DNA from: Chiloscyllium plagiosum
Lineage: Eukaryota
NCBI RefSeq assembly: GCF_004010195.1
Contig: NC_057719.1
Location: 4,681,708-4,745,707 of the forward strand
Reading direction: 5' to 3'
Length of the DNA stretch: 64,000 nucleotides
Shown here: in pieces, positions 1 through 54,723 of the stretch
How the letters are laid out: every line of letters begins with the position of its first letter
Position numbering within the stretch: position 1 is the first letter of the stretch
The notes under the pieces: generated by a model
Databases searched by the model: none
Seen by the model: the letters and a program-made list of their open reading frames with translations, nothing else
What the model was told of the DNA's origin: nothing
Translations under genes and position numbers: made by a program

Positions 1-1117
1 GTATACTTAAGAGGGAAATCAGGAGGGCAAAACAGGGACATGAGATAGCTTTGGCAAATAGAATTAAGGAGAATCCAAAGGATTTTTACAAATATATTAA
101 GGACAAAAGGATAACTAGGGAGAGAACAGGGCCCCTCAAAGATCAGCAAGGTGGCCTTTGTGTGGGGGAGTTACTAAATGAATATTTTGCATCAGTATTT
201 ACTGTGGAAAAGGATATGGATGATATAGACTGTAGGGAAATAGACGGTGACATCTTGCAAAATGTCCAGATTATAGAGGAGGAAGTGCTGGATGTCTTGA
301 AACTGTTAAAGGTGGATAAATCCTCAGGACCTGATTAGGTGTACCTGAGAACTCTGTGGGAGTGATTGCTCCCACAGCTAGAGAAGTGATTGCTGGGCCT
401 CTTGCTGAGATATTTGTATCATCGATAGTCACAGGTGAGGTGCAGGAAGACTGGAGGTTGGCAAACGTGGTGCCACTGTTTAAGCAGGGCGGTAAAGGCA
501 AGCCAGGGAACTATAGAGCATTGAGCCTGACCTCGGTGGTGGGCAAGTTGTTGGAGGGAATTCTGAGGGACAGGATGTACATGTATTTGGAAAGGCAAGG
601 ACTGATTCGGGATAGTCAACATGGCTTTGTGTGTGGGAAATCATGTCTCACAAACTTGATTGAGGTTTTTGAAGAAGTAACAAAGAAGATTGATGAGGGC
701 AGAGCAGTAGATGTGATCTATATGGACTTCAGTAAGGCGTTCGACAAGGTTCCCCATTGGAGACTGATTAGCAAGGTTAGATCTCATGGAATACATAGAA
801 CTAGCCATTTGGATACAGAATTGGAGGTGTAGTGGACAGCGAAGAGGGTTACCTCAGATTACAACAGGATCCGGACCAGATGGGCCACGCAGAGGGCGGT
901 ACATGTATGGAATGGGCTGCCAGAGGATGTGGTGGAGGCTGGTACAATTGCAACATTTAAGAGGCATTTGGATGGGTATATGAATAGGAAGGGTTTGGAG
1001 GGATATGGGCCGGCTGCTGGCAGGTGGGACTAGATTGGGTTGAGATATCTGGTCGGCATGGACAGGTTGGACCGAAGTGTCTGTTTCCATGCTGTATATC
1101 TCTCTGACTCTATGACT
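1..1117 (+). mobile_element. CR1 LINE, ORF2 RT remnant with internal deletions and 3' end
   Basis: Motifs VDKSSGPD, WRLANVVPLFKQG, NYRALSLTS, SQHGF, VDVIYMDFSKAFDKVPH; CR1 3' UTR with ctatgact-type tail; stops and frameshifts. Confidence 0.9.
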
Positions 1118-1118
1118 G

Positions 1119-2315
1119 CAATTTCTCCTCCCAAATGATCAACAGTGCCCTCCAGCTTATCTCCTCCACTTCCTGCAGCTCTGCCCTGGAACTCCAACCA
1201 CAACAAGAATTGAACCCCACACCCCAGTCCTCACCTTCCATCCCACTAATCTCTGGATACAGTGCATTATCCTCCGCCATTTCTGCCACCTATAATCACC
1301 CATCATGAGAGATTTAGAGTAGATTCCATACAGTGTGGAAACAGGCCCTTCGGCCCAAAACGTCCACACTGACCCTCTGAAGAGTAACCCACCCAGATCC
1401 ATTTCCCTCTTGACTAATGCACCTAACACAATGGGCAATTTAGCATGGCCAATTCACCTGACCTGCACATCTTTGGACTATTTTCCTCCTCACACCTATC
1501 TGCGTTCCTCAGAAACTATTCCCGCCATGACTCCTTCGTTAGGTCCACACACCCCACCCTCCAACCGAGCACCTTCCCCTGCTGCAGCAAGAGATGTAAA
1601 ACCTGCATTCGCACCTGCCGTCCTCATCTCTGTCCGAGACTCCAAGAGATCTGGCAGAAATTTTCCTGCACATCCAAACACCTCATTTCCTTTGTTTGTT
1701 GCTCTCAATATGGTCTCCTCTAAATTGGGGAGACAGGACGCCAACTTGCGGAATTTTGCAGGAAACATCCCTGGGGCACATACGCCAAACAACCCCATTG
1801 CCCTGTGGCCGAACACTTCAATTCGCCCTCCCACTTCACCAAGGACGTGGAAGTCCTGGGCCGCCTCCACTGCCAAATCCAAGCCACCTAATGACTGGAG
1901 GAAGAACGCCTCATCTTCCACCTTGGAACCCTCTAACCACACAGTAGCAACATCAACTTTGCTAGTTTTCAAATCTCCACACCCCCACCTCCATCCCAGA
2001 TCCAACTCGGCACCACCCTCTTGACATGTTGCATCTATCCATCTTCCTTCCCACCTATCCACTCCACCCTCCCTACCGAACTATCGCAATCAACCCCCAC
2101 CTGCACCTACCTAATGCCTTCCCAGATACCTTCTCCACACCCCACTCCCATCCTCCTATTTATCTCTCAGTCCGCCCCTCACATTTGCTCATGAAAGGTT
2201 TATGCACGAATTGTCAATTCTCCTGCTGCTTGGATGCTGGCTGACATTCTGTGCTCTTCCAGCATCACACCTTTCAACTCTGATCTCTAGCACCTACAGT
2301 CCTCACTTTCTTCTC
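1119..2315 (+). mobile_element. Penelope-like element 3' fragment (GIY-YIG region and terminus), interrupted by a SINE fragment
   Basis: Reverse-complement similarity to the element at 31107-32999 (TFPCCSKRCKTC, CCSQYGLL motifs, pyrimidine-rich 3' region); decayed hammerhead-like end near 2188-2215. Confidence 0.7.
1314..1478 (-). mobile_element. HE1-like SINE, 3' fragment
   Basis: gtggaaacaggcccttcggcccaa...gggcaatttagcatggccaattcacc, as in the full copy at 43241-43551. Confidence 0.8.
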
Positions 2316-3480
2316 ACGGCCTAACTGATGTTTTATAAAATTGTAACAAGACTTCCTTGCTCTTAAAGTCTATGCCCCAATTTCTGAAGGCAAGCATCCC
2401 TTGTGCCTTCTTCACTACCTTATTCATCTATAATGATATCTTTAAAGGTCAATAGACTTGTACACCAAGGTTTCTTCCCCAGAACCTCTAAGGACCTCCC
2501 ATATATTATGTATATCCGTATTAGACATCCCAAAATGCATTACCTTTCACTTATCGGGATTAAATTCCACCTGCCATTGCTCTGCCTCATTTGCCAGTTG
2601 ATCAATATCAGACTGTACCCTGTGACCAACCATCCTTGCTATCAATAACACCACCACTTTTTCTGTCAACTGCAAATTTACTAATTATACGGTTTACATC
2701 CAAGTCATTCATGTACATACCAAACAGCAAGTGTCCCAGCACTGATTTCTGTGGGTATGCTGCTGGGCACAGGCTTCCAATCATAAAAACAGCCTCAGCC
2801 ATTATCCTTTGCCTCCTATTTGTAAGTCAGTTCTCAATCCAAGTTTTCCAACTTGTCTTGGATCTCGTGGCTTTTATCTTTGAACAATTCGTCTCTGTGG
2901 AACTTAGTCTGTGTCAAAGTACGTGTAAACCTCATCAACTGCACTGTCCTCCTTAATATATTTAGTCACCTTTTCAAAAAAAACTAAAGTTAAATTAGTC
3001 AGACAGGATTTTCTAATAAATCCACGCTGACTATCCCCAATCAATTCCTGTCTTTCCAAATATTGATTAATCCTGTTCTTCAGAATTCTTTCCAATAATT
3101 CCCTCCCATTGATGTTAGACTAGCTAGTCTGTAATTACCTGGCTTATCCCTGCTACCCATCTCAAATAAAGAAACCCCATTTGCTATCCTTCAGCCATCC
3201 GACATTTCTCCTTCTGGCCTGCAAAGTATTAAATATCACTGCCAGAGCCCCAGCGATCTCTTCCTTTGTATGCCAGGCTGCTATGGGAGGCATCTCATCA
3301 GGTCTTGGGGATTTATGCACCTGGGGTATGCCAACTAAAACATCTATTATCATCTTATTCATCTTAATGTGATCTAGGACCTCACCATTCCAACTGAAAT
3401 CTCTGCCTACAATAACTTTCTCAACTTTGAATGTACAGGTGAGAAGTATTCATTTAAAACGTCATACGTGACCATTAGCT
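2316..3480 (-). mobile_element. Degraded CR1 ORF2 (RT) fragment
   Basis: Minus-strand remnants SKFAVD, GDSQRGF..KSCLTNL, HKSPRPD. Confidence 0.75.
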
Positions 3481-3599
3481 CCTTGCACAGGTTGCCCCTT
3501 TGGTCTCTTTTTTTTTTCCCCTAATAATTCTCTTACTCCTTATATACTTAGAAAAAAATTTGAGATTTTCTTTGATCCCATCTGCCAAAGCACCACCGG

Positions 3600-5230
3600 A
3601 GATTGGTAAGATATTAAGCAAGTATTTTAGATCAGCGTTTACTGCGCAGAAGGATATGGAAACTAGAGAACTCTGAGAAATAGTGATATCTTGAAAAATG
3701 TCCATATTACAGAAGAGGACATGCTGGACGTCTTAAGATGCATAAAGATGGATAAATCCTTGTCACCTGATCAAGTGTACTTCAGAATATTATGGGAAGC
3801 TAGGGAAGTGATTGCTGGGCCCCTTCATGAGATATTTGTATGACAAAGAAGAGTGGTGGACGTTGTCTGTATGGACTTGATAAGTCCTTTGATAAGGTTC
3901 CACACGGTAGCGAAGTTAGAATCCAGGGAGAGCTAGCCATTTGGGTACAAAATTAGTTCAAAGCTGGGAGACAGGGTGGTGGTGGTGGAGTGTTGCTTTT
4001 TGGACTGGAGGCCTGTGATCAGTCGAGTGCCACAAAGATTGGTGCTGGGTCAACTGCTTTTTGTCATTTGTATAAATGATTTTTACGCATAGAATGGCAG
4101 GAGTCTGGAACAAGCTGCCAGAGGTTGTGGTGGAGGCAGATACAATAGGGGCCTTTAAGAGACTTTTAGATAAACACATGAATACGCAACAAATTGAAGG
4201 ATATAGTCTAACAGTAGGCAGAAGGGGTTAGTTTTAATTTCATCTCACATTTGGCACAGCATCCTGGACCGAAGGGCCCATTCCTGTGTTGTATTGTTAT
4301 ATGTTCTATGTTCTTTTTACGTGTGACTGTAAGAGGTATGGTTAGTTTGCAGATGACACTAAAATTGTAGTGGACAGCAAAGAAGGTTACCTCAGAGTAC
4401 AACAGAATCTTGATCAGTTGGAGTTTAATTTGGATAAATGTGAGGTGCTGCATTTCGGAAAAGTAAGTCAGAGCAGGACTGATAAACCGAATGGTAAGAT
4501 CCTAGGAGGTATTGGTGAACAAAGGAGCTTTGGGGTGCAGGTTCATGGTTCCTTGCAAGTGGAGTTGCAGGTAGACACAGTAATGAAGAAGGCATTTGGT
4601 GTGATTGCCTTTATTGGTCAGTGCATTGAGTTTAGGAGTTGGGAGGTCATGTTGGGACTGTACAGGGCATTGGTTAGGCCACTTCTGGAATACTGCATTC
4701 ATTTCTGGTCTCCCTGCTATAGGAAGGATGTTGTGAAACTTGAAAGAGTTTAGAAAAGATTTACAAAGATGTCGCCAGGATTGGAGATTTTGAGCTCTAG
4801 AGAGACACCAAATGGGGTGGGACTACTTTCCCCTGGAGTGTTGGCGGCTGAGGAGTGACCTTATAGAAGTTTACAAAATCATGAGGGATCATGGACAGGG
4901 TGAATGCCAAGTTTCTTTTTCCTTGAGTGGAACAGTTCAACACAATAAGTTTAAGGTGAGAGAAGAAAGATTTAAAAGGTGCCTAAGGGGCAACTTTTCA
5001 CGCAGAGGGTGGTGCATGTGTGGAATGGGTTGCTTGAGGTGGTAGTGGAGGCTGGTACAATTACAACATTTAGAAGGCATCTGGATGGCTACATGAATAG
5101 GAGGGTTTGGAGGGATATAGATCAAATGCTGGCAATTGGGACTAGATTAATTTAGGATATCTGGTCTTCATGGGCGAGTTGGACCTGAGGGGGTCTATTT
5201 TGTGCTGTAAATCTCTTTCTCTGTATGACA
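3600..5230 (+). mobile_element. CR1 ORF2 3' half plus 3' UTR, with a nested CR1 3' fragment at about 4081-4313
   Basis: FNLDKCEVLHFG, LYRALVRPLLEYC motifs; two CR1 tails (tgttctatgttct near 4300 and ctatgac-like near 5225). Confidence 0.85.
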
Positions 5231-6389
5231 CAATATTTTGTGCCTTTTGTTTGCCCTCCTAATTTCCTCTTTACACAACTTCCTGTACTCTTTACTTCTG
5301 AAGGGCCTCCCCTATTCTTAATGTGCTGTAACTGACATATGCTTCCTCCTTTTTCTTTATATCTCTATCATCTGACTTCCTTGGACTTAATTGACCTTGC
5401 CCTTGAAAGAAGCATGCTTTTAACATACTACCGTTAAAAGACTCCCACTTTCCAAATTTAGACTTGCCTGCAAATAACTTCCAGACTTTTTGCCAGGTAC
5501 TGTCCAATGATATTAAAATCACCCTAATCCCATTTTAGACCCTTCTGCACTATCTTTATCCCTTTCCATAATGACTTGAAACTTGGAGTTATGGTCACTA
5601 TTCCCAAAATGTTCAATCATTGAAACATTAACCACTTGACCAGCTTAATTCCCTAGGATTAGTCTAGCACTGTCCGATCTCTAGTAGGGCTATTTGTCTA
5701 CTGGCACAAAAAGCTCTCTTGGACTCGCTTCAAAAATTCCACCCATTTAATCCTTTCACACTAAGGTCATTCCAATTAATGTTAGCAAAGTTGAAATCCC
5801 CTACAATTATAACCCTAATGCCTTTCTGAGATTTCCATACATATCTGCTTCTCTAAATCCCTCTTGACTATTGTAAGACCAGTAGTATGATGCTGTCAGC
5901 TTATGAAGAATTTTCATGGAAACTAGGCTTTAAATACCATGGATCGTAATTTCCTTTAACATTGAGCTAATAACTGCTGCAGTGATGCATATGTGGTTTT
6001 GGATGTGCATTAATGTGAAAGTGTTGGTGTAGCTTTGAAGTCGAAATAATTCACTCATAGCAAGTTGATATTATACATCTCGAATTCACTTCAGTGGCAA
6101 GGTACCTTTCGGCAGGTGCAAACTTGTATTTTAAAAGTGCAGATTCATGGTCCATAGACCACTTGAGTACACATTCTAATCTCCACTGGTAAATAACACT
6201 ACCAGTTTATTGTGTTGACATCTTTCTGTGTACTTTGGCTGTTCTGATTTGCTTCTGTAACACTGGCTACATTTGATTAATTGGTTTTGAGATATTTTGA
6301 AATTTCTTGTGACTGCAAAGGGCAGTAAATCTCAAGCTCTTTCAGTCAGAGTTTTGACTCTTTAAGAAACAGGGTACTTAGAACATAGG

Positions 6390-6596
6390 GGAGAAAGTGA
6401 GGTCTGCAGATGCTGGAGATCAGAGCTGAAAATGTGTTGCTGGAAAAGCGCAGCAGGTCAGGCAGCATCCAGGGAACAGGAGAATCGACGTTTCGGGCAT
6501 AAGCCCTTTCCTGAAGAAGGGCTTATGCCCGAAACGTTGATTCTCCTGTTCCCTGGATGCTGCCTGACCTGCTGCGCTTTTCCAGCAACACATTTC
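6390..6596. mobile_element. Penelope-derived fold-back mini-insertion (inverted terminus, about 80 bp arms) with hammerhead core
   Basis: Near-perfect inverted repeat 6430-6595; + strand CTGAAGA-AGGGC-TTAT-GCCC-GAAA-CGTT at 6511-6538. Confidence 0.8.
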
Positions 6597-6989
6597 CACC
6601 ACATACACTTTGGCAGGCAGTATATGCTATTCATATGTATTCTCTCCCCCACACACCATAAACTAATCAGTTAGGTTGTGAGCACATTGTGCTGGCATTC
6701 TGGTGACCCCGGGTAGTATCTGTGTTTGCTCTGCTGTCTCCCTCTATCTTGTGTGTCCATGTGCCTAGTGTCACCCTGCCCTGTGCCACCTCCCACTTCA
6801 CTCTCTCCTTTGTGGTCAAGGAGGCAACTTCGGAGATTGCCCACAGACCACCCAATTTACACGTAGAGGTAGGTCATTTCAAGGAGCTCCTCTTCCCAAG
6901 GGGTATCATGAGTGCCAATTTCGTTGGGGGCTCTTCTGTGGTGACACTCACTGCTGGCACAGTTCTCGTCAACACCTTACAGCAGAGCT

Positions 6990-7790
6990 TTAAACACCCA
7001 AGGCCACACAGAATGCCAGCATGAGTGCAATGAGGAGAACTATCCCAAGGGTCAAATAGAGTCCCCAAGATTTATCAAACAATTTAGCCAACCGTCTGTC
7101 GTTGTGGCACCCTGTCAAAAAATTGTCTAGCTGGTCTTGGATATTCTTGATGGCTTCTGTAATGTTGTAAGAGTCATCAGTAACATGGGTGATACAATTG
7201 TCACCAATAATGCTACAAACATCCCCTTGCTGTGCTAATTGATAATCCACCACGTAGCATGTCTGTGTAGTGTTTGAGTTCAGCCAACTCTGTATTAATT
7301 GCTTCCAGAGCTTTTGAGGTAATATTACCTAAGATAGTCAGGCCACATACAAGGTAATTTCAGTTTTTAGCGCTGACAACCCTTGCTGCCCCCCCCCCCC
7401 CCCCCCAAAATATAGAAATCCCAAGAATCCATATCCCAATGATGACCCCAAAGTGGTGGGTATCTGCCAGTCAGTACAGAACGCCTGGCTGATGGAGCAG
7501 GACACTATCCTTCACCGCACAGGTTTTCCACTGGGCCATGGTACAGTAAGGGATGCAATTGTCTTTACCCTGAACAGGTTTGGGAGGTCTGTCGCATAAG
7601 TCCCCTTAAATAGAAAAACAAATCCCTTCGCTGCTCGGTAACATACATTGTCCTGTCCTTCCGTCTGTCTGTTCACCCATGTCGCCCCTGATCCCCTGGG
7701 TGTTACTCGGTCCAGTGATATTTCCTGGGAACCAAGTTTGTTTTCCAACACTCGGGCCACTCTTATCTCACTAACCGAGTCTTTGCACCT
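6990..7790 (-). pseudogene. env: Decayed endogenous retrovirus env (SU C-terminus and TM)
   Basis: Minus-strand translation gives PVR*R (basic cleavage site), the hydrophobic LGYGFLGFLYFGG, heptad LGNITSKALEAINTELAELK, ISD-like VDYQLAQQGDV, CX6C (CSIIGDNC) and a TM helix WGLYLTLGIVLLIALMLAFC; contains stops and frameshifts. Confidence 0.8.
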
Positions 7791-8079
7791 GCACTTGAAG
7801 GTCAGTTAGGATGGCCAGTAATGTCTCATCTAGTCTAAGTAATTCTATATTGTAAAGGAAGCATTGTCTGTTAATCTATGTTGAAGCAGACTGTGATTAG
7901 TCAAATATGCAGTTATGGCAGAGTTAAAAGCCATTTTATACAGTTTTTAGCAGAATTGTCAATTTGCAGCCGAGAAACCATTTTGTCATATTATTTGCAT
8001 TGAGAAGCCATTTTATTTCCACCTAAAGTTAGTAAGAGCATGTGTTAAATGGTTGTTCCTGACAACAACTAGTTACCTC

Positions 8080-9315
8080 AGCCTGTATTCAGATTTCAGA
8101 TCCTCACCTTATCAAACATCTTGGTAAAATCCATATACGTTGTATCCTTAAAGACTTCAATAAGGCTTGAGGCATGATCTGCCCCTTACAAAGCCATGCT
8201 GACTATCTCCATTCTAACAATGCTTTTCCAAGTTATCATAAATCCTGTCTCTCAGAATCCTCTCCAGTACTTTGCCCACCACAGACATGAGACTGACTGG
8301 TCTGTAATTCCCAGGATTATCCCTATTCCCTTTGTTGAAGAAGGGAATAGCATTTGCCTCCCTCCAATCATCTGGCATGACTCCAGTGGACAGTGAGGAT
8401 GCAAAGATCATCGCCATAGGCGCAGCAATCTCTTTCCTCACTTTTTGTAGTAACCTAGGCTGTATCCCACCTGGCCCAGGGATTTATCTATCCTCATGAT
8501 CTTCAAAATTTTCAACACATTGTCCTTCCTAACATCAACCTGTTAGAGCATATCAGTCTGTTTCACACTGTCCTCAGAAACGTCAAGATACCTTTCAGTC
8601 GTGAATACTGAAGCAAAGTATTCGTTAAGGACCTGCCCTACCTCCTCCGACTCCAGGCGCAAGTTCTCTCCACTATCCCTGATCGGCCCTACCCTCACTC
8701 ATTCCTCACATAAGTGTAGAACACCTGAGGGGTTTCCTTAATCCTACCTTTTGCATGCACCTTCCAGCTCTCCTAAGTCCATTTTTCAGTTCCTTCTTGG
8801 CTACGTTGTAACCCTCTACTATCCTGTCTGATCCTTGCCTCCTCAACCTTAAGTAAGCTTCCTTCTTCCTCTTGACTAGATGTTCCATATCTCTTGTCAC
8901 CCAAGGTGCTTTCAACCTACCATCCTTTCCTTGCCTCAGTGGGACAAACCTTATCAGCAAGTGCTCCCGAAACAACCTCCACATTTCTGGTTTGGAGGTG
9001 CAGGTGTTGGACTGGGATGTACAAAGTTAAAAATCTCACAACACCAGGTTATAGTCCAACAGGTTTATTTGGAAGCACTAGCTTTCGAGTGCTGCTCCTT
9101 CATCAGGTAGTTGCTGCATTTCTGTCGTGCATTTCCTTGAGAACCTCTGTTCCCAATTTAGTTGCCCCAATTCCTGCCTAATAGCTTTGTAATTCCCCTC
9201 TACAATTAAATACTTACCCATACTGTCTGCTCCTACCCCTCTTCATGAGTGTAGTAAACGTCATGGAGTTGTGATTACTATCACTGAAATGCTCTCCCAC
9301 CGAGTGATCTGACTT
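8080..9315 (-). mobile_element. CR1 ORF2 fragment, with a Penelope terminus inserted at about 8989-9110
   Basis: DWREANAIPFFNKG, NYRPVSL, APWVT motifs; the insert matches 13591-13710. Confidence 0.85.
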
Positions 9316-9859
9316 ATGTTAGTTCTGTTCAATAACCACAAATGGAGAGTAAATGCTGTGCATGTTTTCCACCCAAACAAGCGCAGCTTCAAATGTTTGT
9401 ATGCAACCAGCACTATGACTGGCATCTGCCCATTGAATGACATAATCTGTGGAGCTCCAGAGGGCTGCATGAGCAAATCCACTTGTCATATTAAGTTTTG
9501 AGATTTTACTGTACAGTTTTATGCAGCGGAATAGTCCTTATTAGGTGCATGTAAATGAGCATGGGTATGCTGCAGTAGGTTCAGTTGGAGAGTAGATTTT
9601 TCCTCATGCCTGATCAATACATTAATGCATTAATATTTATTAATGTCAGTTTCTGTATTATTTCACTGTTTATGTACTTTAAACTTAATATTTGAGATTG
9701 ATGCAGGTAGGAAATTACACCTGGGTGTTCCAGCACCTTTTTGTTTACCCACTCCAAGTTATGTATTGATGAACGTAGAGCGGTGGATATATTTCAATAG
9801 AGCACAGGAACAGGCCCTTTGGCTCACCAAGCCTTTGCTGATTCTAATCTCTATACCTG

Positions 9860-10220
9860 CTACTTAAAGCAGAGGGACCTGGGTGTCCTTGTGCGTGAAT
9901 GGCAGAAGGTTGGTCTGCAGATGCAGCAGGTAACTAATGAAAATGGAATTTTGTTTTTCAGTGCTAAAGGGATTGAGTTTAAAAGTAGGGAGGTTATGTT
10001 GCAGCTATATAGGGTGCTTGTGAGGCCAAACTTGGAATACTGTGCAGTTTTGGTCTCCTTACTTGAGAAAAGATATACTGGTATTAGAGGGGCTGCATAG
10101 GATGTCCACTAGGTTGTTTACAGAGTTGAGGGGGTTGGCTTCTGAGGACAGACTGAGTAGACTGGGATTATATTCATTGGAATTCATAAGAACGAGGAGA
10201 GATGTCATAAAAACATACAC
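9860..10220 (+). mobile_element. CR1 ORF2 C-terminal fragment
   Basis: QRDLGVLV, LQLYRVLVRPNLEYC, LGLYSLEF. Confidence 0.8.
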
Positions 10221-11949
10221 ATGTACCGCATTAGTATGGTACTCATTTTCTCTGCTCATCCCACACCTCACCTCTGCCAGCATTTGCTTCCAGTTAAGTG
10301 ACAATATGGTAGTTGTGTTAATTTTCCAATGAATACAAGCACATAATGAGGTAAACATATTTACCGACTGGTTCCAAATTTACTGGTTAAAAAGCTATTG
10401 ACATTGAAGGTTAATTCTGTAGAGCTGAGATTTTGTTTTAACAACTTCACCTATCAAATCATCAGTCGCTCAATCATTGGTATCCATTATTATACTAAGA
10501 GAAATGTACAATTAAACTTATTAGCAACCCACTGAACCATCTCCGGTATTACATAAAAATGCCATATTGAATGTTTGTTCTGTAATTTATTATTTAATTT
10601 AAAAGCTTGAGGTTTGTCATAACTGCAGCTGCCTTAACTTATGCATGGAAGTTAGATTTGATTAGTTTTGTAAACTGTTTTATTGGGACGTAATTTACTG
10701 ATTTTGTGGTTCATACAAAACATAGCACTACCGTCTGCTTGTGATGCAACTTTAACTATAGCTTTATGCCACAAATTTAACTTTCGACTAAACTGTGCAT
10801 CCCTTTGAACCCGCTGGGAGTTCTGCAATATTTAATTGGAAACAAAGAAGCCAAAGAATGGCCAAAACTTACTTTATTGTTCCACAACTGAGGAAGCTAA
10901 TTTTAAAGTGAACAGAGAAGGAATGGCTCCATGACTTCAAAGAAAGGTGCTTCCAGCTACTATAGAAAAGTATTCACAACTGTAAAATAGTTAAAGCACA
11001 GAGGAGGCCACTTGGCTATCATAATGTGCTAGCTATCTGCAAGAGAAGATACTTCATAATTTCCAAAAAAAAATCTTGATGTGTGAGATTTGGAAAGCAA
11101 CAGACAAGACCTTTGATGTGCAGTCAGTAAAAATAATAGTTTGAGCATTATACTTTGTAAAATTGACTCGATCACTAACTTCAAACAATGATTCTTAAAG
11201 CAGCCAATGGGCCTTTGTCAAAATATTCTTTATTTTTGTAGCAAGCTTAAAAGACGCTGTCATAAATTTAACCAGTGAGGGTAGTTAACCTGTGAACAGA
11301 AATGAATGTGCTGGTAAGCATCTCACTGCATTGCAGAAATCTGAAAATGGGAGTTGCGTTTAAAGTTAAACTGACAAAAAGAGAAACTGAAACCGATGAG
11401 ATGGTTAAAGTGAAGATAGGTGATTTTTAAAAAATTGGATCAGCAGTTGGAGGAAGTAACTTGCAGGATTAGTGTTAGAGTAGAAAATAGAACTGATTGG
11501 TTGCAGTACAGAAGGCTGGTATAACATGGATAGACTGAATAGATTCCTGTGTCTATGGTTGATCAATTTAGCTTACTTGCTCTTCAATGAGCTGGCCCAC
11601 ACAGCTACCCCAAGCTTACTAATAGAATCATTATTGATCAGATCACATTAGACAATTCGTTAAGTAAGATTAAAAATTAAGAGGAGTCTGGGTAGAGTCA
11701 TTAGGGAATAACTGTTTACATTGATGGAAGGGTAAGGAAGCTGATTTGAAAATTAACAGCAAAAGAATTAATGGCAACATCATTGTTTTTTATGCAATGT
11801 GTTGTTTGGATCTTGAATTATATAGTTACCTGAAGAGGAAATTTACAGAGCTGCATCAAAATGATAGAATATAACTCACAGAATTGCTCTTACAGATAGC
11901 CAGTGCGTTATGATGGTTGAAAGGTCTCCCTCTGTGCTGCAAGGTCATT

Positions 11950-12152
11950 TTGCTATAATGCGTGTTTCATCAACACAAATTTGCTGTAACTTGGTTGGTG
12001 AATTGGGGATGCTGTTTCTAAAGCGCGAATATGTAAAAGATGTGTTGACTATAACGCGATTACATCGCCAACACTTTAAATGCTGTTTCTAAGGCGTAAT
12101 TTTTCTATAGCACAGGGATGCACAAGAATACATTATAGAAGAACTGACTGTA
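11950..12152. mobile_element. Possible Tigger/pogo-type MITE remnant
   Basis: Repeated ctataa(c/t)gcg sub-terminal motifs, ending ...gaactgactg|TA; similar in style to 37500-37702. Confidence 0.35.
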
Positions 12153-12379
12153 TTGTACAGCTCAATAAATACTTTTCTACAGAAGTTGGAAATATCTGTC
12201 TTTGAAGTAGTGGAACAAGAAAATAAGTCTTTGCCATTCTTTGGTTTCTTTGTTTCCAGTAGTAAAAATGTGAATTACTATTATAACTTGGGTTTGCATC
12301 ATGTGGGAGATTAATTTCAAGTTTGTTACAAGTTTGGTTGATGTATCTTTTTTTCTGACAAACTAAAAGGGGATGGGGC

Positions 12380-12912
12380 CTCTTCTGGAGTACTATGTCC
12401 AGTTCTAGTCGCCCTCTTACAGAAATAATATTATGAAGTTGGATGGGGTTCAGAAGAGATTTACTAGGATGTTACCAGCTCTGGAATGTTTGAGTTATAA
12501 AGACTGGATAGGCTGAGACTTTCACTGGAGGGTAGAAAGTTGAGAGATGACCTTATAGAAGTTTCTAAAATTATGATAGGAATAGATAAGCTTAATGGTA
12601 GGTGTCATTTCCCTAGGATTGGAGATTTCAAGACTCAGGAGCACGTTTTTAAGGTGAGAGGAGAGAGTTTAAAAAAAGACATGGGGGCATATATTTTATA
12701 CAGAGGGTGGTTTGTATGTGGAATGAACTTCCTGAGGAAGTGGTGCATGTGGGAACAATGACAACGTTTAAAAGACATTTGAATAAGTACATGAATAGGA
12801 GAGGTTTAAAGGAATGTGGGCCAGGAGAGGGAGGTGGGCCTAGTTTAGTTTGGGGTGATGTTCGGCATGAACTGCTTGGACCAAAGGGTCTGTTTCCATG
12901 CTGTATGACTAA
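12380..12912 (+). mobile_element. CR1 3' fragment
   Basis: RDDLIEVSKIM, WNELPEEVV, TFKRHLNKYM and CR1 3' UTR. Confidence 0.85.
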
Positions 12913-13589
12913 GTGATTGGTGACGTTGGAGGAGAACGTATTTATGGATGGTAATTTGTCACCCTATACATCCAGCAGAATGATAAATATTTCATGATCT
13001 TCTTGATTTGCTTCATGAAGTACGGTGATTCCAATTGTCAAGTAACCTGAAGGTATTCTTCTGTTTTTATTGTGTTGCTAAAAAGAGTACAAAAACATTA
13101 CATTGTGAACACAATTTAAATCTGATTTTCCTGTATCACATTGATTTGCATGTCACCCATGCCAAATGTACCATGAAGTGCTTTCAGTAGGTTTGCCTCA
13201 CTGAGCAATATTGCAACTGTGAAGCCAGACTTTCGTTGAAGCTAAATATCTGTTGCTACATTTGTTTCAGATACGCAAAGTGGTGATTCTTTATTCAATG
13301 CAAAAATTCTTTCTATTCTGTCAAAGCTGCTCCAGCGGTCAGCACTGAATTTAGCAACTTTCCCTTCAATACTTGGAAGTTGTTGTCAAATACCGAGGAT
13401 TGAACAACTTTGAAATCCACGACTATAACTGCATTTCTAAATTGCATTGATGAATGAGCTGAAAAATCATATTAAGATTTAAAGGTGATGTGTGAAACTA
13501 CTTTTTGACCAACAGATTGTCAAGGGAAAATTTGTTTTAACGATGTATTGTGCCTCTTACTTTTTAATTTAAATTTTCTGTTGTCTGTC

Positions 13590-13893
13590 ATGATTTGGAG
13601 GTGCAGGTATTGGACTGGGGTGTACAAAGTTAAAAATCACACACCAGGTAATAGTACCAACAGGTTTATTTGGAAGCACTAGCTTTCGGAGCATTGCTCC
13701 TTCATCAGGTGGTTGTGGAGTATAAGATTGTAAGACGCAGAATTTATCGCAAAGGTTTAGTGTGATGTAAACTGTAATCACACTGTAAACTTTTGCAATA
13801 AATTCTGCGTCTTACAATCTTATCCTTCACAACCACCTAATGATGAAGTAATGCTCCGAAAGCTAGTGCTTCCAAATAAACCCGTTGGACTAT
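13590..13893. mobile_element. Penelope-derived fold-back insertion (second family), about 115 bp inverted arms
   Basis: Inverted repeat of about 13650-13893; minus-strand core CTGATGA-a-GGAGC-aat-GCTCC-GAAA at about 13685-13709. Confidence 0.7.
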
Positions 13894-13899
13894 AAATTA

Positions 13900-14517
13900 C
13901 ACTTACAAAAAGAGAAAGCCCTCGCAGGGGACTACATGGTGCTGCAATTCAAGCCACTCTTCTCCCCCAGATCAAAGAGTCGCAGAGCCTCAAATTTTGC
14001 CACAAGGGGATTCGACCCCTTTCTCACTTTACTCGTCATGGTATCTTGAACCCCACTTAAACACACAGAACCCGAATCCTAGTGAAACACACAGTTTGAA
14101 CCTCGCTTACACACAGCTTGAACCTCAACACAGTGCCGAGGGCTAGAACCTCAAATTAACCCACCCGGTAGACTCTGACCCCATTACCATGCAGAGGAGT
14201 CGAAACTCAATCAAACCAACCCAAGGGGACTTGAACCCTGTACTGCAAAGAGGATTCAAACCTCAATCACAGCCTCCACCGCCCCACCCCCACCTAAAGC
14301 AGCACAGAGGACTACAACCTGAAACTGTCTGTCTCGAGGAATCTGTACAATAGAGAGAGATTGAACAAGGGGACCAACTCCGGCACAGAGGATAATCGAG
14401 AGGGACCAAGCTTTAAAATCTTGTGGGCCCATCTGTATCAAGACACCAATGTTCTGGGTGCCGCTGATACCGTCTGATCGTAACTATTCGTTTGGATCCT
14501 ACTGACTATGCCAATAT
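13900..14517 (-). mobile_element. ERV internal 5' leader remnant downstream of a 5' LTR
   Basis: Directly follows the LTR and PBS on the minus strand; contains repeated GGTTCRA-type motifs; no gag ORF recognised. Confidence 0.6.
14496..14513 (-). promoter_or_regulatory. Retroviral primer-binding site, tRNA-Ser
   Basis: Minus strand TGGCATAGTCAGTAGGAT, 4 nt after the LTR CA end; 15/18 match to the complement of the vertebrate tRNA-Ser 3' end as recalled (TGGCGTAGTCGGCAGGAT), two of the mismatches at CpG. Confidence 0.8.
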
Positions 14518-15060
14518 TGTTGTCCCATTTCCCCCCCCTCAGTTGAAGCAAAACGCTCATAGAGACAGTGTAGTTTTACCTCTTTCATCTTTATTCCGGG
14601 CCCTGGAGGGAGAGAGAATGATCACCCATGTGTACAGAGGCATGAGTTCATGGTCTTCTCTGGAACAAAAGTTTCTCAATGAACTATATAGTCATTTTAC
14701 AGGGAGGAGCATCCAGATAAGGCAACATACATATTAATTGGATGATTATTGCAATCAACGAGTATCAATAGCAGAGACCAAGCCCTTTACTGTTATACAA
14801 TAAATATTCTTAACCACTAATTGTATTCATTTAATGAATACTTTTCACCTTGTTAACTGATGTTACATACTGAATGCTACCTCATCTTGTTAAATGGTTG
14901 TACGTAATGCATGATTTTCCACCTTGTTGACCCATTACCCTTGCCTGCAGCACCCCATTGTAAACTGTAAGTTCTTATCTGATCTGAGTCATGCTCAGCT
15001 GAAGTCAAAACTCTGAACTTAACTCTATCCCTGTCTGCTTATACTCTATACACATTCTCA
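14518..15060 (-). mobile_element. ERV LTR (5' LTR, copy 1)
   Basis: TG...CA ends; highly similar to 35884-36419 and 54181-54723; minus-strand AATAAA at 14590-14595; adjacent PBS. Confidence 0.85.
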
Positions 15061-18914: not shown

Positions 18915-21900
18915 AAAAAACAACAAAGAAAATTTACAGCCCAGGAACAAGCCCTTCAGCCCTTCAAGCCTGAGCCGGACCAAACCCACTGTCTAAACCT
19001 ATCACCCAGTTCCTAAGCATCTGTATCCCTCTGCTCATGTATCTCTCCAGGCGCACCTTGAATGAATCTGCCTCAACTACCTCTGTTGACGACGCATTCC
19101 AGGCACTTACCATTCTCTGTGTAAAGTACTTGCTGCATATATCCCCCTTAAACTTTTCACCTCTCACCTTGAAAGCATGACTTCTCGTTATTGAATCCCT
19201 CACCCTGGGGAAAAAGCTTATCTCTATCTACCCCGTCTATGCCCTTTGTGATTTTGTAGACCTCAATCAGATCCCCTCCTCAATCTTTTTTTTTTCTAAT
19301 GAAAACAATCTCTAACCTATTCAACCTCTCTTCACAGCTAGCACCTTCCATACCATGCAACATCCTCGTAAACCTCTCTGCACCCTCTCCAAAGCTTCCA
19401 CGTCCTTTTGATAATGCGGCGACCCGAAGTGTACACAGTATTTTAAATGCAGCCGAACCCAAGTCTTGTGCAATTTTTACCTGACCTGCCAATACCCTGT
19501 CCGATGAAGGCAAGCATACCGTATGCCTTCTTGACCATTCTATCCACCTGTGCAGCCACCTTCAAGGTACAATGGATCTGTACTCCCAGATCTCTCTGCT
19601 CATCAACTTTTCCAAAGGCTCTTCTGTTTACAGTATAGTTGGCTCTAGAATTAGACTTGACAAAATGCATCACCTCACATTTGCCTGGATTGAACTCCAT
19701 CTGCCACTTCTCCACCCAATTCTCCAGTCTACCTCTATTCTCCTGTATTCTTTAACAGTCCCCTGTGCTTTCTGCTACTCTACCAATCTTCGTGCCGTCT
19801 GCAAACTTGCTGTCATACCGACAGTGCCCTCTTCCAGATCATTTATGTATATGACAAACAACAGTGGCCCGGCAGTGATCCCTGTGGAACACGACTGGTC
19901 ACCGTTCTCCATTTCAAGAAACTCCCTTCAACTACTACTCTCTGTCTCCTGTTGTCAACCACTTCTTTATCCACCTAGCTAGAACATCCTGCACAGCATG
20001 TGACTTCACTTTCTCCATTAGTTTACCATGGGGAACCTTATTAAGCACCTTACTGAAGTCCATATATATGACATCTACAGCCCTTCCTTCGTCTATCACC
20101 TTGGTCACTTCCTCAAACAACTCGATTAAGTTGGTAAGGCACAATTTACCCCGCACAAAACCATGTTGCCTATCACTGATAAGCCCCTTCTTTTCCAAAT
20201 ATAAATAGATTTTATCCTTCAGTACCTTCTCCAGCAACTTTCCAACCATTGACGTCAGGCTCACTGGTCTGTAGCTACCTGGAATATCCCTACTACCCTT
20301 TTACAGGGAGACAACATGAGCAACCTTCCAGTCCTCCCGGCACTTCACCAGTGTTTAAGGATGCTACAAAGATATATGTCAGTGCCCCAACTATTTCCCC
20401 TCTCGCTTCCCTCAGTAACCTGGGATAGATCCTATTGGTCCTGGGGATTTGTCCACCTTAATATCCTCTAGCCAACCCAACACATCTTCCCTCCTTATGT
20501 CAACATGATCCAGAGTAAACAAACTTCTATCTCTAATCTCAGCATTCTTCCATACCTCAGTGAACACTGACGCAAAGTAATCATTGAGAATCTCACCTAT
20601 TTTCTCAGGTTCGACACACAACCTTCCTTCCTGCAACTTCTACCACCTGGCCTGGCTCATTCCCCAATACTAGGTCCAATATGGCCCCTTCCCTTGTCGG
20701 ACGATTGACATACTGCTCACAGCGCCAGAGACCAGGGTTCAATTCCCATCTCAGGCGACTCTGTGTGTGGAGTTTGCACGTTCTTCCCGTGTCTCTGTGG
20801 GTTTTCTCCGGCTGCTCCGGTTTCCTCCCACAATCCAAAAATGTGCAGGTTAGGTGAATTGGCCATGCTAAATTGCCTGTAGTGTTAGGTGAAGGGGTAA
20901 ATGTAGGGGAATGGGTCAGGGTGGGTTGCGCTTCGGCGGGTCGGTGTGGACTTGTTGGGCCGAAGGGCCTGTTTCCACACTGTAAGTAATCTTAAAAAAA
21001 CTCTCCGGGACGCTCCTTATAAATTCTGCCCCATCCAGACCTCTGACACTAAATGTATCCCAATCAATGTTGGGCAAATTAAAATCTCCCATTACCACCA
21101 TCCTTTTGCCTCTACATCTTTCCATAATCTGTTTACCTGTTTGTTCTTCTATCTCATGTACACTGTTCGGAGGCCTGTAATACAGCCCCACCAATGTAAC
21201 TGCACCCTTCTATTTCTCAGCTCCACCCATAATGCCTCACTGTTCATGCCCTCCATAGTGTCCTCCTTTCGCGCAGCCCTTATATTATCCCTGACCAACA
21301 ATGCAACTTCCCCCCCACCCCCCCTTTACTTCCTTCCTTCTCCTGTCTGAAGAATCTATATCCTAGAACATTTAATTGTCAATCATGCCCTTCCTTCAAC
21401 CAAGTGTCTATTTTTGCAATAACGTCATACCCACTGCCTTACCCACTGTATTCCTTACATTAAAGTGTATGCCTTTGAGGTCCTCCTCTTTAACTTCTCT
21501 CCTAGCTCCCTGAATTCTGCTTTCAGGACCTCATCTCATTTTTTTTTACTTATATCCTTGGTGCCTATATGCACCAAGACAGCTGGCTGTTCACCCTCCC
21601 CTTTCAAAATGCTGTGCAGCTAATCAGTGACATCCCTGACTCAAGCACCTGGGAGGCAGCATACCATCTGGGAATCTCGTTTTCAGCCACAGAACTGCCA
21701 ATCTACTCCCCTTACAATAGAATCCCCTGTGAGTATGGCCTTATGAGTCTTTTTCCTGGCCTTATGAACAGCAGTGCCTGTCACAGTGCCATGATCCTGA
21801 CAACTGTTGCCCTCCCCTGATGAGCCATCTCCCCCAACAGTCTCCAGAACTGTATACCTATTTTGAAGGGAGATGACCACAGGGAGCACCTGCACTGCCT

Positions 21901-35744: not shown

Positions 35745-36630
35745 GGGGCAGCACAGTAGCTCAGTGGTTAGCACTGCTACCTTGCAGCGCCAGGGACCCT
35801 GGTTTGATTCCACCCTCAGGCAACTGCTTATGTGGAGTTTGCACATTCCCCCTTGCTCTATGTGGGTTTCCACCAGGTGCTCCTGTTGTCCCATTTCCCC
35901 TCACAGTCAGAGCAAAACCCTCAGACTGTGTAGTTTTACCTCCTTAATCTTTATTCCAGGCCCTGGAGGATCACCCACATGTACAGGGACATGAGATCAC
36001 GGTCTTCTCTGGAACAGCAGTTTCTTAGTGAATTATATAGTCATTTTATAGGGAGGAGCATCTAGATAAGGCAACATACATATTGATTGGGTGACCATTG
36101 CAATCAGTGAGTGTCAATAGCAAAGATTAAGCCATCTGGTATTACACAGTGAATGTTCTTAACCCTAACTGGCTTCACATAGTGAATACTTTTCGCCTTG
36201 TTAAACTGACCTTACATATTGAATGCTTCCAATATTGTTAAATGGCTCTACATCATGAATGCTTTTCCACCTTGTTAACCCGTTACCCTTGCCTCCAGCA
36301 CCCCATTGTTAACTGCAAGTTCTTATCTGATCTGAGTCATGCTCAGCTGAACTCTCTTGTTTCACAAAACTCAGAATTTAACACTTTCCCTGCCTGCTTA
36401 TACCCTACACACATTCTCACCCTGATTGCCTCCCACAATCTAAACATATGAGATTAGGTGGATTGGCCATAGTGTTCATGGATGTGCTGGCTAGGTGGAT
36501 TAGCCGTGGGAAGTGCATGGTTACAGGGGTAGGGTAGGGAATGGACCTGGATGGGATACTCTTCGGAGAATTGGTATGGACTCAATACACTTAATGGCCT
36601 GCTTCCTCACTGTGGGCATTCTGTGATTCT
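35745..36630 (+). mobile_element. HE1-like SINE split by a solo LTR
   Basis: 5' half ggggcagcacagtagctcagtggttagcac...ccaggtgctcc (to 35883); 3' half resumes at 36420 with ..cctcccacaatctaaa.. and ends in a ctgtgattct tail. Confidence 0.8.
35884..36419 (-). mobile_element. ERV solo LTR (copy 2)
   Basis: TG...CA ends; minus-strand TATAAAA (36044-36050) and AATAAA (35950-35955); homologous to 14518-15060. Confidence 0.85.
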
Positions 36631-54180: not shown

Positions 54181-54723
54181 TGTCATCCCGTTCTCCCTCC
54201 CCTCAGTCAAAGCAAAACGCTCAGGGACACAGTATGGTTTTACCTCCTTCATCTTTATTCCCGGCCCTGGAGGGAGAGAGAACGATCGTCCATGTGCACA
54301 GCGACATGACTTCACAGTCTTCTCTGGAATAGCAGTTTCTTTATGAATTATTTAGGGAGGAACATCCAGATAAGGCAACATACATATTGAATGGGTGACC
54401 GTTACAATCAGCGAGTGTCAATAGCAAAGATTAAGCCATCTGGTGTTACACAATGAATGTTCTTAACCCTAACTGGCTTCACTTAATGAATACTTTTCAC
54501 CTTGGTAAACTGACCTTACATACTGAATACTTCCAATATTGTTAAATGGCTCTATATAATGCTTGCTTTTCCACCTTGTTAACCCATTACCCTTGCCTCC
54601 AGCACCCCAATGTTAACTGCAAGTTCTTATCTGATCTGAGTCATGCTCAACTGAACCTCCTTGTTTCACAAAACTCAGAACTTAACTCTTTCCCTACCTG
54701 CTTATACTGTATACCCATTCTCA
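54181..54723 (-). mobile_element. ERV solo LTR (copy 3)
   Basis: TG...CA ends; minus-strand AATAAA at 54254-54259; homologous to copies 1 and 2. Confidence 0.85.

What the first reader, a model, noticed from the sequence alone, without database searches (positions are those of the whole stretch)
14004..14264. Array of about 9 tRNA T-arm / Pol III B-box-like motifs in an ERV 5' leader
Seen in sequence: on the minus (viral-sense) strand, about 230-490 nt downstream of the PBS, a GGTTCRA-type motif recurs every 20-45 nt. Several copies form short stem-loops: GAGG-TTTGAAT-CCTC (14250-14264), GGG-TTCAAGT-CCC (14224-14239), GAGT-TTCG-ACTC (14197-14208), GAGG-TTCTAGC-CCTC (14138-14152) and AAGGGG-TCGAAT-CCCCTT (14004-14021). 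Others lack a stem: gaggttcaagct, gaggttcaaact, ggggttcaagat, aggattcggg. Spacers differ, so this is not a simple tandem repeat. Established: GTTCRANNC is the TFIIIC B box and the tRNA T-loop; BLV and foamy viruses make Pol III small RNAs; HIV-1 has a tRNA-like element near its PBS. Inference: this could be a Pol III/TFIIIC cassette (small RNAs or insulator), or a set of tRNA-mimic or packaging hairpins in a shark ERV. I do not know of a description of it.
Basis: partly seen in the sequence, partly recalled or inferred. Interest (0 to 1): 0.7.

Follow-up and report, generated by a model that had tools for sequence, protein, structure and literature searches.

The report
T-arm-like hairpin array in retroviral leader
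A dead, many-copy retrovirus-like element carries about ten tandemly repeated small RNA hairpins shaped like the T-arm of a tRNA just after its primer site, most likely part of its RNA packaging region, and possibly a lure for host tRNA-handling proteins.

Summary
The motif cluster is real: 9 GGTTCRA-like sites in 270 nt against at most 4 elsewhere in the window, and 0 of 2,000 shuffles reach it. It has 10 units spaced 22-35 nt, 232-492 nt after the primer site of a truncated LTR element. Contigs from two species show a multicopy family with varying unit number. Where this copy breaks the pattern, most other copies keep it: a G-closed 7-nt U-U-N-R-A-N-Y loop on about 4 bp. That shared shape points to RNA hairpins rather than DNA B boxes: the last unit mostly lacks the B-box C, A boxes are not enriched, and one stem pair outside the B box differs compensatorily between unit types. 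Best reading (0.45): a multivalent leader hairpin array for genome packaging or dimer linkage. Boldest reading (0.2): true T-arm mimics that draw host T-arm enzymes or tRNA. No function was tested; covariation rests on one event; the array folds no better than shuffles. I found no description in nine targeted literature searches; an earlier scan note reports a similar array.

The parts
14518..15060 (-). 5' LTR, 543 nt, TG...CA ends
   Evidence: 85-86% identical to two further LTR copies in the window (35884-36419, 54181-54723) that share its start and end and carry no leader
14496..14513 (-). Primer-binding site, 4 nt after the LTR
   Evidence: Position and TGG start seen in sequence. Likeness to the 3' end of vertebrate tRNA-Ser is recalled, not tested by a tool
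14424..14431 (-). 8-nt G+C-rich palindrome upstream of the array; candidate dimer-initiation site
   Evidence: One of two 8-nt palindromes in 13895-14520; conservation not shown, role inferred
14250..14264 (-). Unit 1: 4-bp stem (GAGG/CCTC type), 7-nt loop
   Evidence: pairs at 0.98 when span is limited to 30 nt, 0.11 at span 150
14226..14238 (-). Unit 2: 3-bp stem (G-run/C-run type), 7-nt loop; the only exact RGTTCRANTCC B-box match
14194..14208 (-). Unit 3: decayed here; pattern kept in most other copies
14168..14182 (-).
14138..14152 (-). Unit 5: 4-bp stem plus two G-U pairs, 7-nt loop
14057..14126 (-). Units 6-8: 22-26-nt subrepeat with loop motif and TG-rich spacer; stems weak or absent in this copy
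   Evidence: poorly covered by other copies
14040..14054 (-). Unit 9: stem broken here, paired in most other copies
14004..14021 (-). Unit 10: most stable hairpin here (6-nt loop); many other copies have a 7-nt loop without the B-box C
   Evidence: pair probability 0.95-0.99
13895..14003 (-). 3' end of the leader, best-covered part among other copies, with a splice-donor-like site near 13906
   Evidence: donor role inferred
13591..13894 (.). Fold-back repeat insertion that cuts the element off
   Evidence: 13651-13893 is self-inverted at 88% and related to 8988-9113; 21, 15 and 8 contigs of three runs continue with other sequence at 13894; no gag/pol Pfam match in 1001-13950. 'Penelope-like' is a recalled label

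Best explanation
The array is part of the 5' leader of a multicopy, now dead LTR element (probably an endogenous retrovirus). SHOWN: it grew by tandem duplication of a small hairpin unit, first as a two-hairpin block of about 56 nt, then as 22-26-nt units; the number of units differs among copies; across units and copies the shared form is a G-closed 7-nt U-U-N-R-A-N-Y loop on about 4 bp. INFERRED: this form was kept because it acted in the genomic RNA of the active element, as a row of small stem-loops between the PBS and the coding region that gave many weak binding sites for Gag and for RNA-RNA contacts during packaging and dimer formation, as leader stem-loops do in other retroviruses; template slippage during reverse transcription made and varied the repeats. 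The present copy is a decayed, truncated relic with no expected activity.
For: Position 232-492 nt after the PBS and before the point where other copies run on. Tandem origin. Family-wide: 510 contigs of run X4 (organism A) and 314 of X14 (organism B) lie on the 705-nt stretch, up to 49 and 34 at one place. Of the 40 best-supported differences shown (114 not shown), 18 fall in the array: 7 move toward the loop-and-stem pattern, 4 are at free loop positions, 5 are in spacers, 2 move away. At units 3, 4, 5 and 9 the pattern-keeping letter has 72-93% of summed depth in X4 and X14. 6 of the 10 joints with inserted letters go back by about a unit, so some copies hold extra units. The third stem pair, outside the B-box consensus, is A-U in one unit type and G-C in the other. 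Leader stem-loops with short conserved loops act in packaging and dimer stability in alpha- and gammaretroviruses (PMC516450, passages).
Against: The array folds no better than shuffles (z +0.66; 77 of 100 shuffles as good); no 50-nt window of 19 reached z -2; self-duplex is unremarkable (47 of 150 shuffles as good). With span 150 only unit 10 forms its own hairpin in this copy. The compensatory difference is one event passed on by duplication, and duplication alone gives every unit a stem. The array centre is the worst-covered part of the leader at 80% identity, so it changes fast. Several loops lack a central CG, unlike the GACG loops, including unit 5 in most other copies. A donor-like site lies downstream of the array in the best-covered bin, which would leave the array in spliced RNAs too; a second donor-like motif upstream is seen only in a loose-end summary of 10 contigs. 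The data are unphased contigs filtered for likeness to this copy. No gag, pol or env can be tied to this LTR here.
Confidence: 0.45

Rival explanations
1. True T-arm mimicry. The hairpins were selected to look like tRNA T-arms so that host T-arm enzymes (TRUB1 pseudouridine synthase, TRMT6/61A m1A methyltransferase) mark the viral RNA, or so that pairs of T-loops interlock and hold the elbow of the primer tRNA, or so that a tRNA-elbow-binding surface of Gag grips them. This can coexist with a packaging role.
For: The shared form is the substrate shape reported for TRUB1 (GUUCNANNC core, 7-nt loop, the two innermost pairs critical, C at +1 flexible; PMC5340967 passages) and TRMT6/61A (relaxed G[ATC]TCNA plus at least 3 bp; PMC6191711 passages). 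Loop positions 1, 2, 4 and 5 are what other copies keep, with A or G at 4 and position 3 free in unit 10. [quoted passage not shown] HIV-1 matrix binds the tRNA elbow (PMC8473020). The two-hairpin pattern's only hit in JGI metagenomes is a tRNA-like stretch in a bacterial-looking contig.
Against: Stems are mostly 4 bp, not 5; no D-arm, acceptor stem or tRNA fold (ARAGORN 0; no Rfam tRNA match). TRUB1 strongly prefers A or U at loop position 6, where 6 of the 9 seven-nt loops here have G. m1A on such mRNA sites is usually very low and would be expected to hinder reverse transcription (inference). The interlocking T-loops of T-boxes have other consensus sequences (AGAGA, UGxRA; PMC7583486). Nothing was assayed.
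Confidence: 0.2
2. Neutral tandem expansion. One chance hairpin in the leader was amplified by slippage during reverse transcription; the T-arm look and the stems are inherited, not selected.
For: Clear tandem origin with spacers included, variable unit number and poor coverage of the array centre, no folding signal, only one compensatory event.
Against: The loop-and-stem core is recognisable in all 10 units while spacers fall into at least three types; unit 10 has changed the free loop position yet kept loop length and stem in many copies; the two unit types differ by a double change that keeps pairing.
Confidence: 0.2
3. DNA-level cluster of TFIIIC B boxes acting as an insulator, or with A boxes as Pol III promoters for small RNAs.
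For: Any T-arm is also a B box: unit 2 matches RGTTCRANTCC exactly, units 1 and 3 with one mismatch (consensus from PMC7954030; scored), and other copies are closer to it at units 3, 4, 5 and 9. All sites face one way. The PBS itself matches the A-box consensus with one mismatch, 251 nt before the first B box.
Against: 6 of 10 units have 3 mismatches here; the B-box C of unit 10 is replaced in 64%, 90% and 76% of depth in X4, X14 and X9; stem pairs beyond the box are kept and differ compensatorily, which a DNA site does not need; A boxes at chance level (94 of 300 shuffles); one T5 run only, past the array. B-box-only TFIIIC sites cannot be excluded by sequence.
Confidence: 0.12
4. The stretch is foreign to the LTR element: a decayed SINE multimer or satellite that happens to follow the LTR.
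For: tRNA-derived SINE heads with T-arm hairpins occur in the window (e.g. near 20736 and 43494).
Against: No alignment of the leader to any other part of the window beyond 18 nt; units are 22-35 nt apart, too close for SINE heads, with different stems; other copies join the array to both leader flanks, e.g. an X14 contig covering 13894-14274 and joints from the array to the PBS side.
Confidence: 0.03

Closest known systems
GACG-tetraloop stem-loops of alpha- and gammaretroviral leaders (M-MLV) and of Maedi Visna virus (PMC516450, passages)
   Same: Short stem-loops with a conserved loop in the leader after the PBS, present in more than one copy, tied to packaging and dimer stability.
   Different: Here about ten units made by tandem duplication, with 7-nt T-loop-type loops, about 4 bp, variable number, and no central CG in several loops; no function shown.
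[quoted passage not shown]
   Same: A tRNA-like hairpin in a retroviral leader near the PBS.
   Different: The TLE is single, beside the PBS, mimics the anticodon arm and binds LysRS; these are repeated, 230-490 nt downstream, and resemble the T-arm.
T-arm-like mRNA hairpins modified by TRUB1 and TRMT6/61A (PMC5340967, PMC6191711, passages)
   Same: Core sequence, 7-nt loop and innermost base pairs match.
   Different: Those are scattered single sites in host mRNAs; here a dense array in a retroelement, with shorter stems and mostly the base TRUB1 disfavours at loop position 6.
Type 2 Pol III promoter (A box plus B box) of tRNA genes and SINEs (PMC7954030, passages)
   Same: B-box-like 11-mers, one exact.
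   Different: No properly placed A box above chance, no terminator after the units, B-box C lost in the last unit of most copies.
Tandem repeats in the long leaders of fish retroviruses such as ZFERV, and the repeated protein-binding sites of the Drosophila gypsy leader (both recalled; the ZFERV paper is not held)
   Same: A repeat array between PBS and gag.
   Different: I recall no T-arm-like hairpins in them; not checked.

Membership tests
LTR retroelement / ERV 5' leader | LTR with TG...CA ends, dispersed copies | tested here: met
   543-nt LTR, two further copies at 85-86%
LTR retroelement / ERV 5' leader | PBS complementary to a host tRNA 3' end right after the LTR | tested here: inconclusive
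   Position and TGG start seen; the tRNA-Ser match is recalled, no host tRNA set was available
LTR retroelement / ERV 5' leader | gag, pol (and env for a retrovirus) downstream | tested here: inconclusive
   This copy is cut at 13894; no gag/pol Pfam match in six frames of 1001-13950; other copies run on, but their coding part was out of reach. Retrovirus versus other LTR element is not settled here
tRNA T-arm / T-loop hairpin | 7-nt loop with U-U-N-R-A, closed by G-C | tested here: met
   6 of 10 units match the five letters exactly and 4 with one mismatch; most other copies keep the pattern at units 3, 4, 5, 9
tRNA T-arm / T-loop hairpin | 5-bp stem | tested here: not met
   0-4 Watson-Crick pairs on the 7-nt loops here; unit 5 reaches 6 only with G-U pairs
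tRNA T-arm / T-loop hairpin | T-loop tertiary fold (U1-A5 pair, stacking gap) | not testable with these tools
   Needs NMR or crystal structure
tRNA or tRNA-like structure | Acceptor stem, D-arm, cloverleaf | tested here: not met
   ARAGORN 0 genes; no tRNA match in Rfam at E up to 10
Type 2 Pol III promoter | B box RGTTCRANTCC | tested here: inconclusive
   1 exact, 2 with one mismatch, 1 with two, 6 with three, of 10; closer in other copies except unit 10
Type 2 Pol III promoter | A box at working distance upstream | tested here: not met
   0 exact; 8 with one mismatch, 94 of 300 shuffles reach 8
Type 2 Pol III promoter | T-run terminator after the unit | tested here: not met
   No run of four or more T within or directly after the array; one T5 at 13911
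Type 2 Pol III promoter / TFIIIC-only site | TFIIIC or Pol III occupancy, small RNA product | not testable with these tools
   The one raw RNA run is poly(A) single-cell
Retroviral packaging / dimer-linkage stem-loops | Located between PBS and gag | tested here: met
   Downstream of the PBS and upstream of the point where other copies run on; gag itself not seen
Retroviral packaging / dimer-linkage stem-loops | GACG-type or self-complementary loop | tested here: not met
   3 of 10 loops hold a CG here; unit 5 lacks it in most other copies; self-duplex not above shuffles
Retroviral packaging / dimer-linkage stem-loops | Stem covariation across copies | tested here: inconclusive
   One compensatory difference between unit types; per-copy sequences not available
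Retroviral packaging / dimer-linkage stem-loops | Gag binding, packaging or dimer activity | not testable with these tools
   Needs experiments

The most novel reading that the evidence does not exclude
A retroviral lineage of cartilaginous fish evolved a tandem array of about ten tRNA T-arm mimics in its leader that recruits the host's T-arm machinery: pseudouridine or m1A writers that mark the genomic RNA, or interlocked T-loop pairs and Gag surfaces that capture the primer tRNA by its elbow. It would be a multivalent T-arm mimic in a retrovirus, where the described mimic is a single anticodon-arm copy.
Probability: 0.2. Interest if true: 0.8.

Novelty: new variant of a known kind. Interest (0 to 1): 0.45.

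Why it matters
Leader RNA elements are known almost only from mammalian and bird retroviruses; a recent packaging review has no mention of fish, epsilonretroviruses or T-loops (PMC13736810, term search). A family-wide array of T-loop hairpins is a distinct design and gives short, testable RNA pieces. If the units are real substrates of TRUB1 or TRMT6/61A, or bind tRNA, it would show a retroelement using tRNA T-arm mimicry in multiples. If they are only packaging loops or neutral repeats, it is a modest addition to ERV anatomy.

Tried and rejected
No whole genome is held, so copies could not be collected as sequences and covariation tools could not be run. Sequence look-ups in earlier findings gave 0 look-alikes and a word look-up nothing. 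A 22-nt leader stretch had 0 matches in JGI metagenomes. A two-hairpin pattern had 0 matches in IMG/VR and 1 in metagenomes, L001, a tRNA-like stretch in a bacterial-looking contig with no tRNA call, unrelated. Expression: no RNA holder listed; the raw poly(A) single-cell run gave 5 reads from about 2% of the run, all under 95% alike, and X9 is only guessed to be RNA; neither bears on Pol III products. Rfam: only sub-threshold miRNA matches on the fold-back insertion and one E 7.7 hit, none in the array. Global folding, sliding folding and self-duplex gave no signal. Lokiretrovirus link: the paper has no PBS, tRNA, leader or shark terms; dropped. The env-like remnant near 6900-7850 was rejected as part of this element: what follows it does not align with this LTR (score 36, shuffle mean 37). 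GACG-type kissing was considered and lowered because several loops lack CG. Two papers were not held.

Full report
OBSERVATION. I count 10 units with loop starts at 14260, 14235, 14204, 14178, 14148, 14122, 14100, 14076, 14050 and 14015, spaced 22-35 nt. GGTTCRA with up to one mismatch occurs 9 times in 270 nt, against at most 4 in any other 270-nt window of the 64 kb on either strand; GGTTCRANNC gives 8 against 2. None of 2,000 dinucleotide shuffles reached the observed count for any of four patterns, and none of 1,000 reached the 7 motif-centred hairpins. The motif was picked after the fact, but the margin is wide. Window-wide the motif is at chance level, so the signal is the cluster.

CONTEXT. 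A 543-nt LTR runs 15060 to 14518 with TG...CA ends; two other copies in the window (35884-36419, 54181-54723) are 85-86% identical to it and carry no leader. The PBS follows at 14513-14496; its likeness to tRNA-Ser is recalled. The leader runs to 13895, where a fold-back repeat (13591-13894) cuts it. Six frames of 1001-13950, read with X at stops, give one sub-threshold RVT_1 match near 8.2-8.3 kb in LINE-like sequence and no gag or pol family.

TANDEM ORIGIN. The top autocorrelation lag is 56 nt. 14268-14209 aligns with 14212-14153 at 43 of 59 columns, spacers included (score 47; best of 500 shuffles 29). Units 6 and 7 share 17 of 18 nt (score 32; best shuffle 20). Of the other four unit pairs tried, one barely exceeded its shuffles (21 against 20) and three did not. 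So this is a decayed higher-order tandem repeat, missed by Tandem Repeats Finder.

OTHER COPIES. No genome is held. Of 24 runs listed, 20 hold part of the leader, in two organisms and six studies. I laid 4 of them at 80% likeness. X4 (organism A) gave 510 contigs, X14 (organism B) 314, X9 93, most under 90% alike: an old family with dozens of copies (up to 49 and 34 contigs at one place; summed depth is not a copy number). At 13894, 21, 15 and 8 contigs run on with other sequence, so the cut is particular to this copy. Depth is lowest at 14092-14331 (X4 bins 30-363, against 346-804 on the PBS side and 507-2,545 on the 3' side). Many joints skip or go back; 6 of the 10 with inserted letters go back by about one unit. 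Unit number thus varies. The table of other letters shows 40 of 154 rows; 18 lie in the array. By my reading 7 move toward a G-closed 7-nt U-U-N-R-A-N-Y loop with its stem, 4 are at free loop positions, 5 are in spacers, and 2 move away (the outer pair of unit 10, lost in 60-85% of depth, and one contig at unit 2). At units 3, 4, 5 and 9 the pattern-keeping letter has 72-93% of depth in X4 and X14; X9 agrees at units 3 and 5, is silent at 4 and mixed at 9 (1-3 contigs). Unit 10 has a seventh loop base in 9, 16 and 6 contigs, and lacks the C of the B box in 64%, 90% and 76% of depth. Limits: contigs are unphased, filtered for likeness to this copy, and barely cover units 1, 2, 6 and 7.

RNA OR DNA. 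Every T-arm is also a B box (consensus RGTTCRANTCC; PMC7954030, passages), so the test is what is kept beyond the overlap. Three points favour RNA. The third stem pair lies outside the box and is A-U in one unit type, G-C in the other. Unit 10 keeps loop length and stem while losing the box's C. A boxes are at chance level (0 exact; 8 near matches, reached by 94 of 300 shuffles), and the only T5 run is at 13911. Against selection on structure: the array folds no better than shuffles (z +0.66), none of 19 sliding windows reached z -2, self-duplex is matched by 47 of 150 shuffles, only unit 10 forms its own hairpin at span 150 in this decayed copy, and the compensatory difference is a single inherited event.

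MECHANISM. I commit to a packaging or dimer-linkage array at 0.45: shown are the position, the tandem origin, the variable number and the shared hairpin form; inferred are selection at RNA level and the role. The precedent is the GACG stem-loops of alpha- and gammaretroviral leaders (PMC516450, passages), but the loops differ and several lack CG, so this works at most like them and is not a member. True T-arm mimicry gets 0.2. The shared form fits the substrate rules of TRUB1 (PMC5340967, passages) and TRMT6/61A (PMC6191711, passages); interlocked T-loops bind the tRNA elbow (PMC4919913, PMC7583486, PMC8704770, passages; one section of the last); HIV-1 matrix binds the elbow (PMC8473020, passages). 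But stems are short, 6 of 9 seven-nt loops have the base TRUB1 disfavours at position 6, and there is no wider tRNA fold. Neutral expansion gets 0.2, a TFIIIC cluster 0.12, a foreign SINE or satellite 0.03.

NOVELTY. Of ten full-text searches of the held library, nine bore on this; their listings showed no description of a T-arm hairpin array in a retroviral or ERV leader, judged from titles and abstract starts plus the passages cited. Term searches inside PMC13736810, PMC7947760, PMC5723415 and PMC11181671 found none. Most subscription papers and repeat databases were not searched, and no supplements were read. Leader repeats in ZFERV and gypsy are recalled only.

VERDICT. Real, family-wide, a new variant of retroviral leader stem-loops; function untested. 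Interest 0.45; 0.8 if T-arm mimicry is shown.

Noticed in passing
window 6900-7850, minus strand: Broken env-like remnant: across three frames a fusion-peptide-like stretch, a cysteine motif typical of gamma-type transmembrane subunits (recalled) and a membrane span; weak Pfam match to Ebola-like_HR1-HR2 (E 0.032, below cut-off). It is followed by a purine tract and sequence unrelated to the 15060-14518 LTR, so probably another ERV family.
   Followed up: partly
window 13591-13894: Fold-back repeat (88% self-inverted, related to 8988-9113) that truncates the element and draws sub-threshold Rfam miRNA matches; resembles the Penelope-like inverted pairs of earlier scan notes.
   Followed up: partly
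window 14503-14513, minus strand: The PBS itself matches the A-box consensus with one mismatch, 251 nt before the first B-box-like site; probably a by-product of tRNA complementarity.
   Followed up: partly
window 14305-14395, minus strand: Upstream of the array, fragments resembling the 3' halves of the units recur without their 5' halves, in a pyrimidine-rich stretch ending in an acceptor-like site near 14343; 10 contigs of X4 carry extra sequence near 14334.
   Followed up: no
window 35884-36419 and 54181-54723: Two LTR copies without leader. The first sits inside a SINE-like repeat with a possible 4-nt target duplication; the second is followed by about 10 nt resembling a decayed PBS start. 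Three copies in 64 kb suggest a very abundant family.
   Followed up: partly
run X14, record 1, on window 13894-14274: A contig of organism B spans the whole array with only 24 other letters and 8 gaps and runs on unlike the fold-back insertion: a close relative or orthologue without the insertion.
   Followed up: no
L001 1480-1600: Two T-arm-like hairpins 29 nt apart in a bacterial-looking metagenome contig with no ARAGORN call; may be an unusual or rearranged tRNA locus.
   Followed up: no
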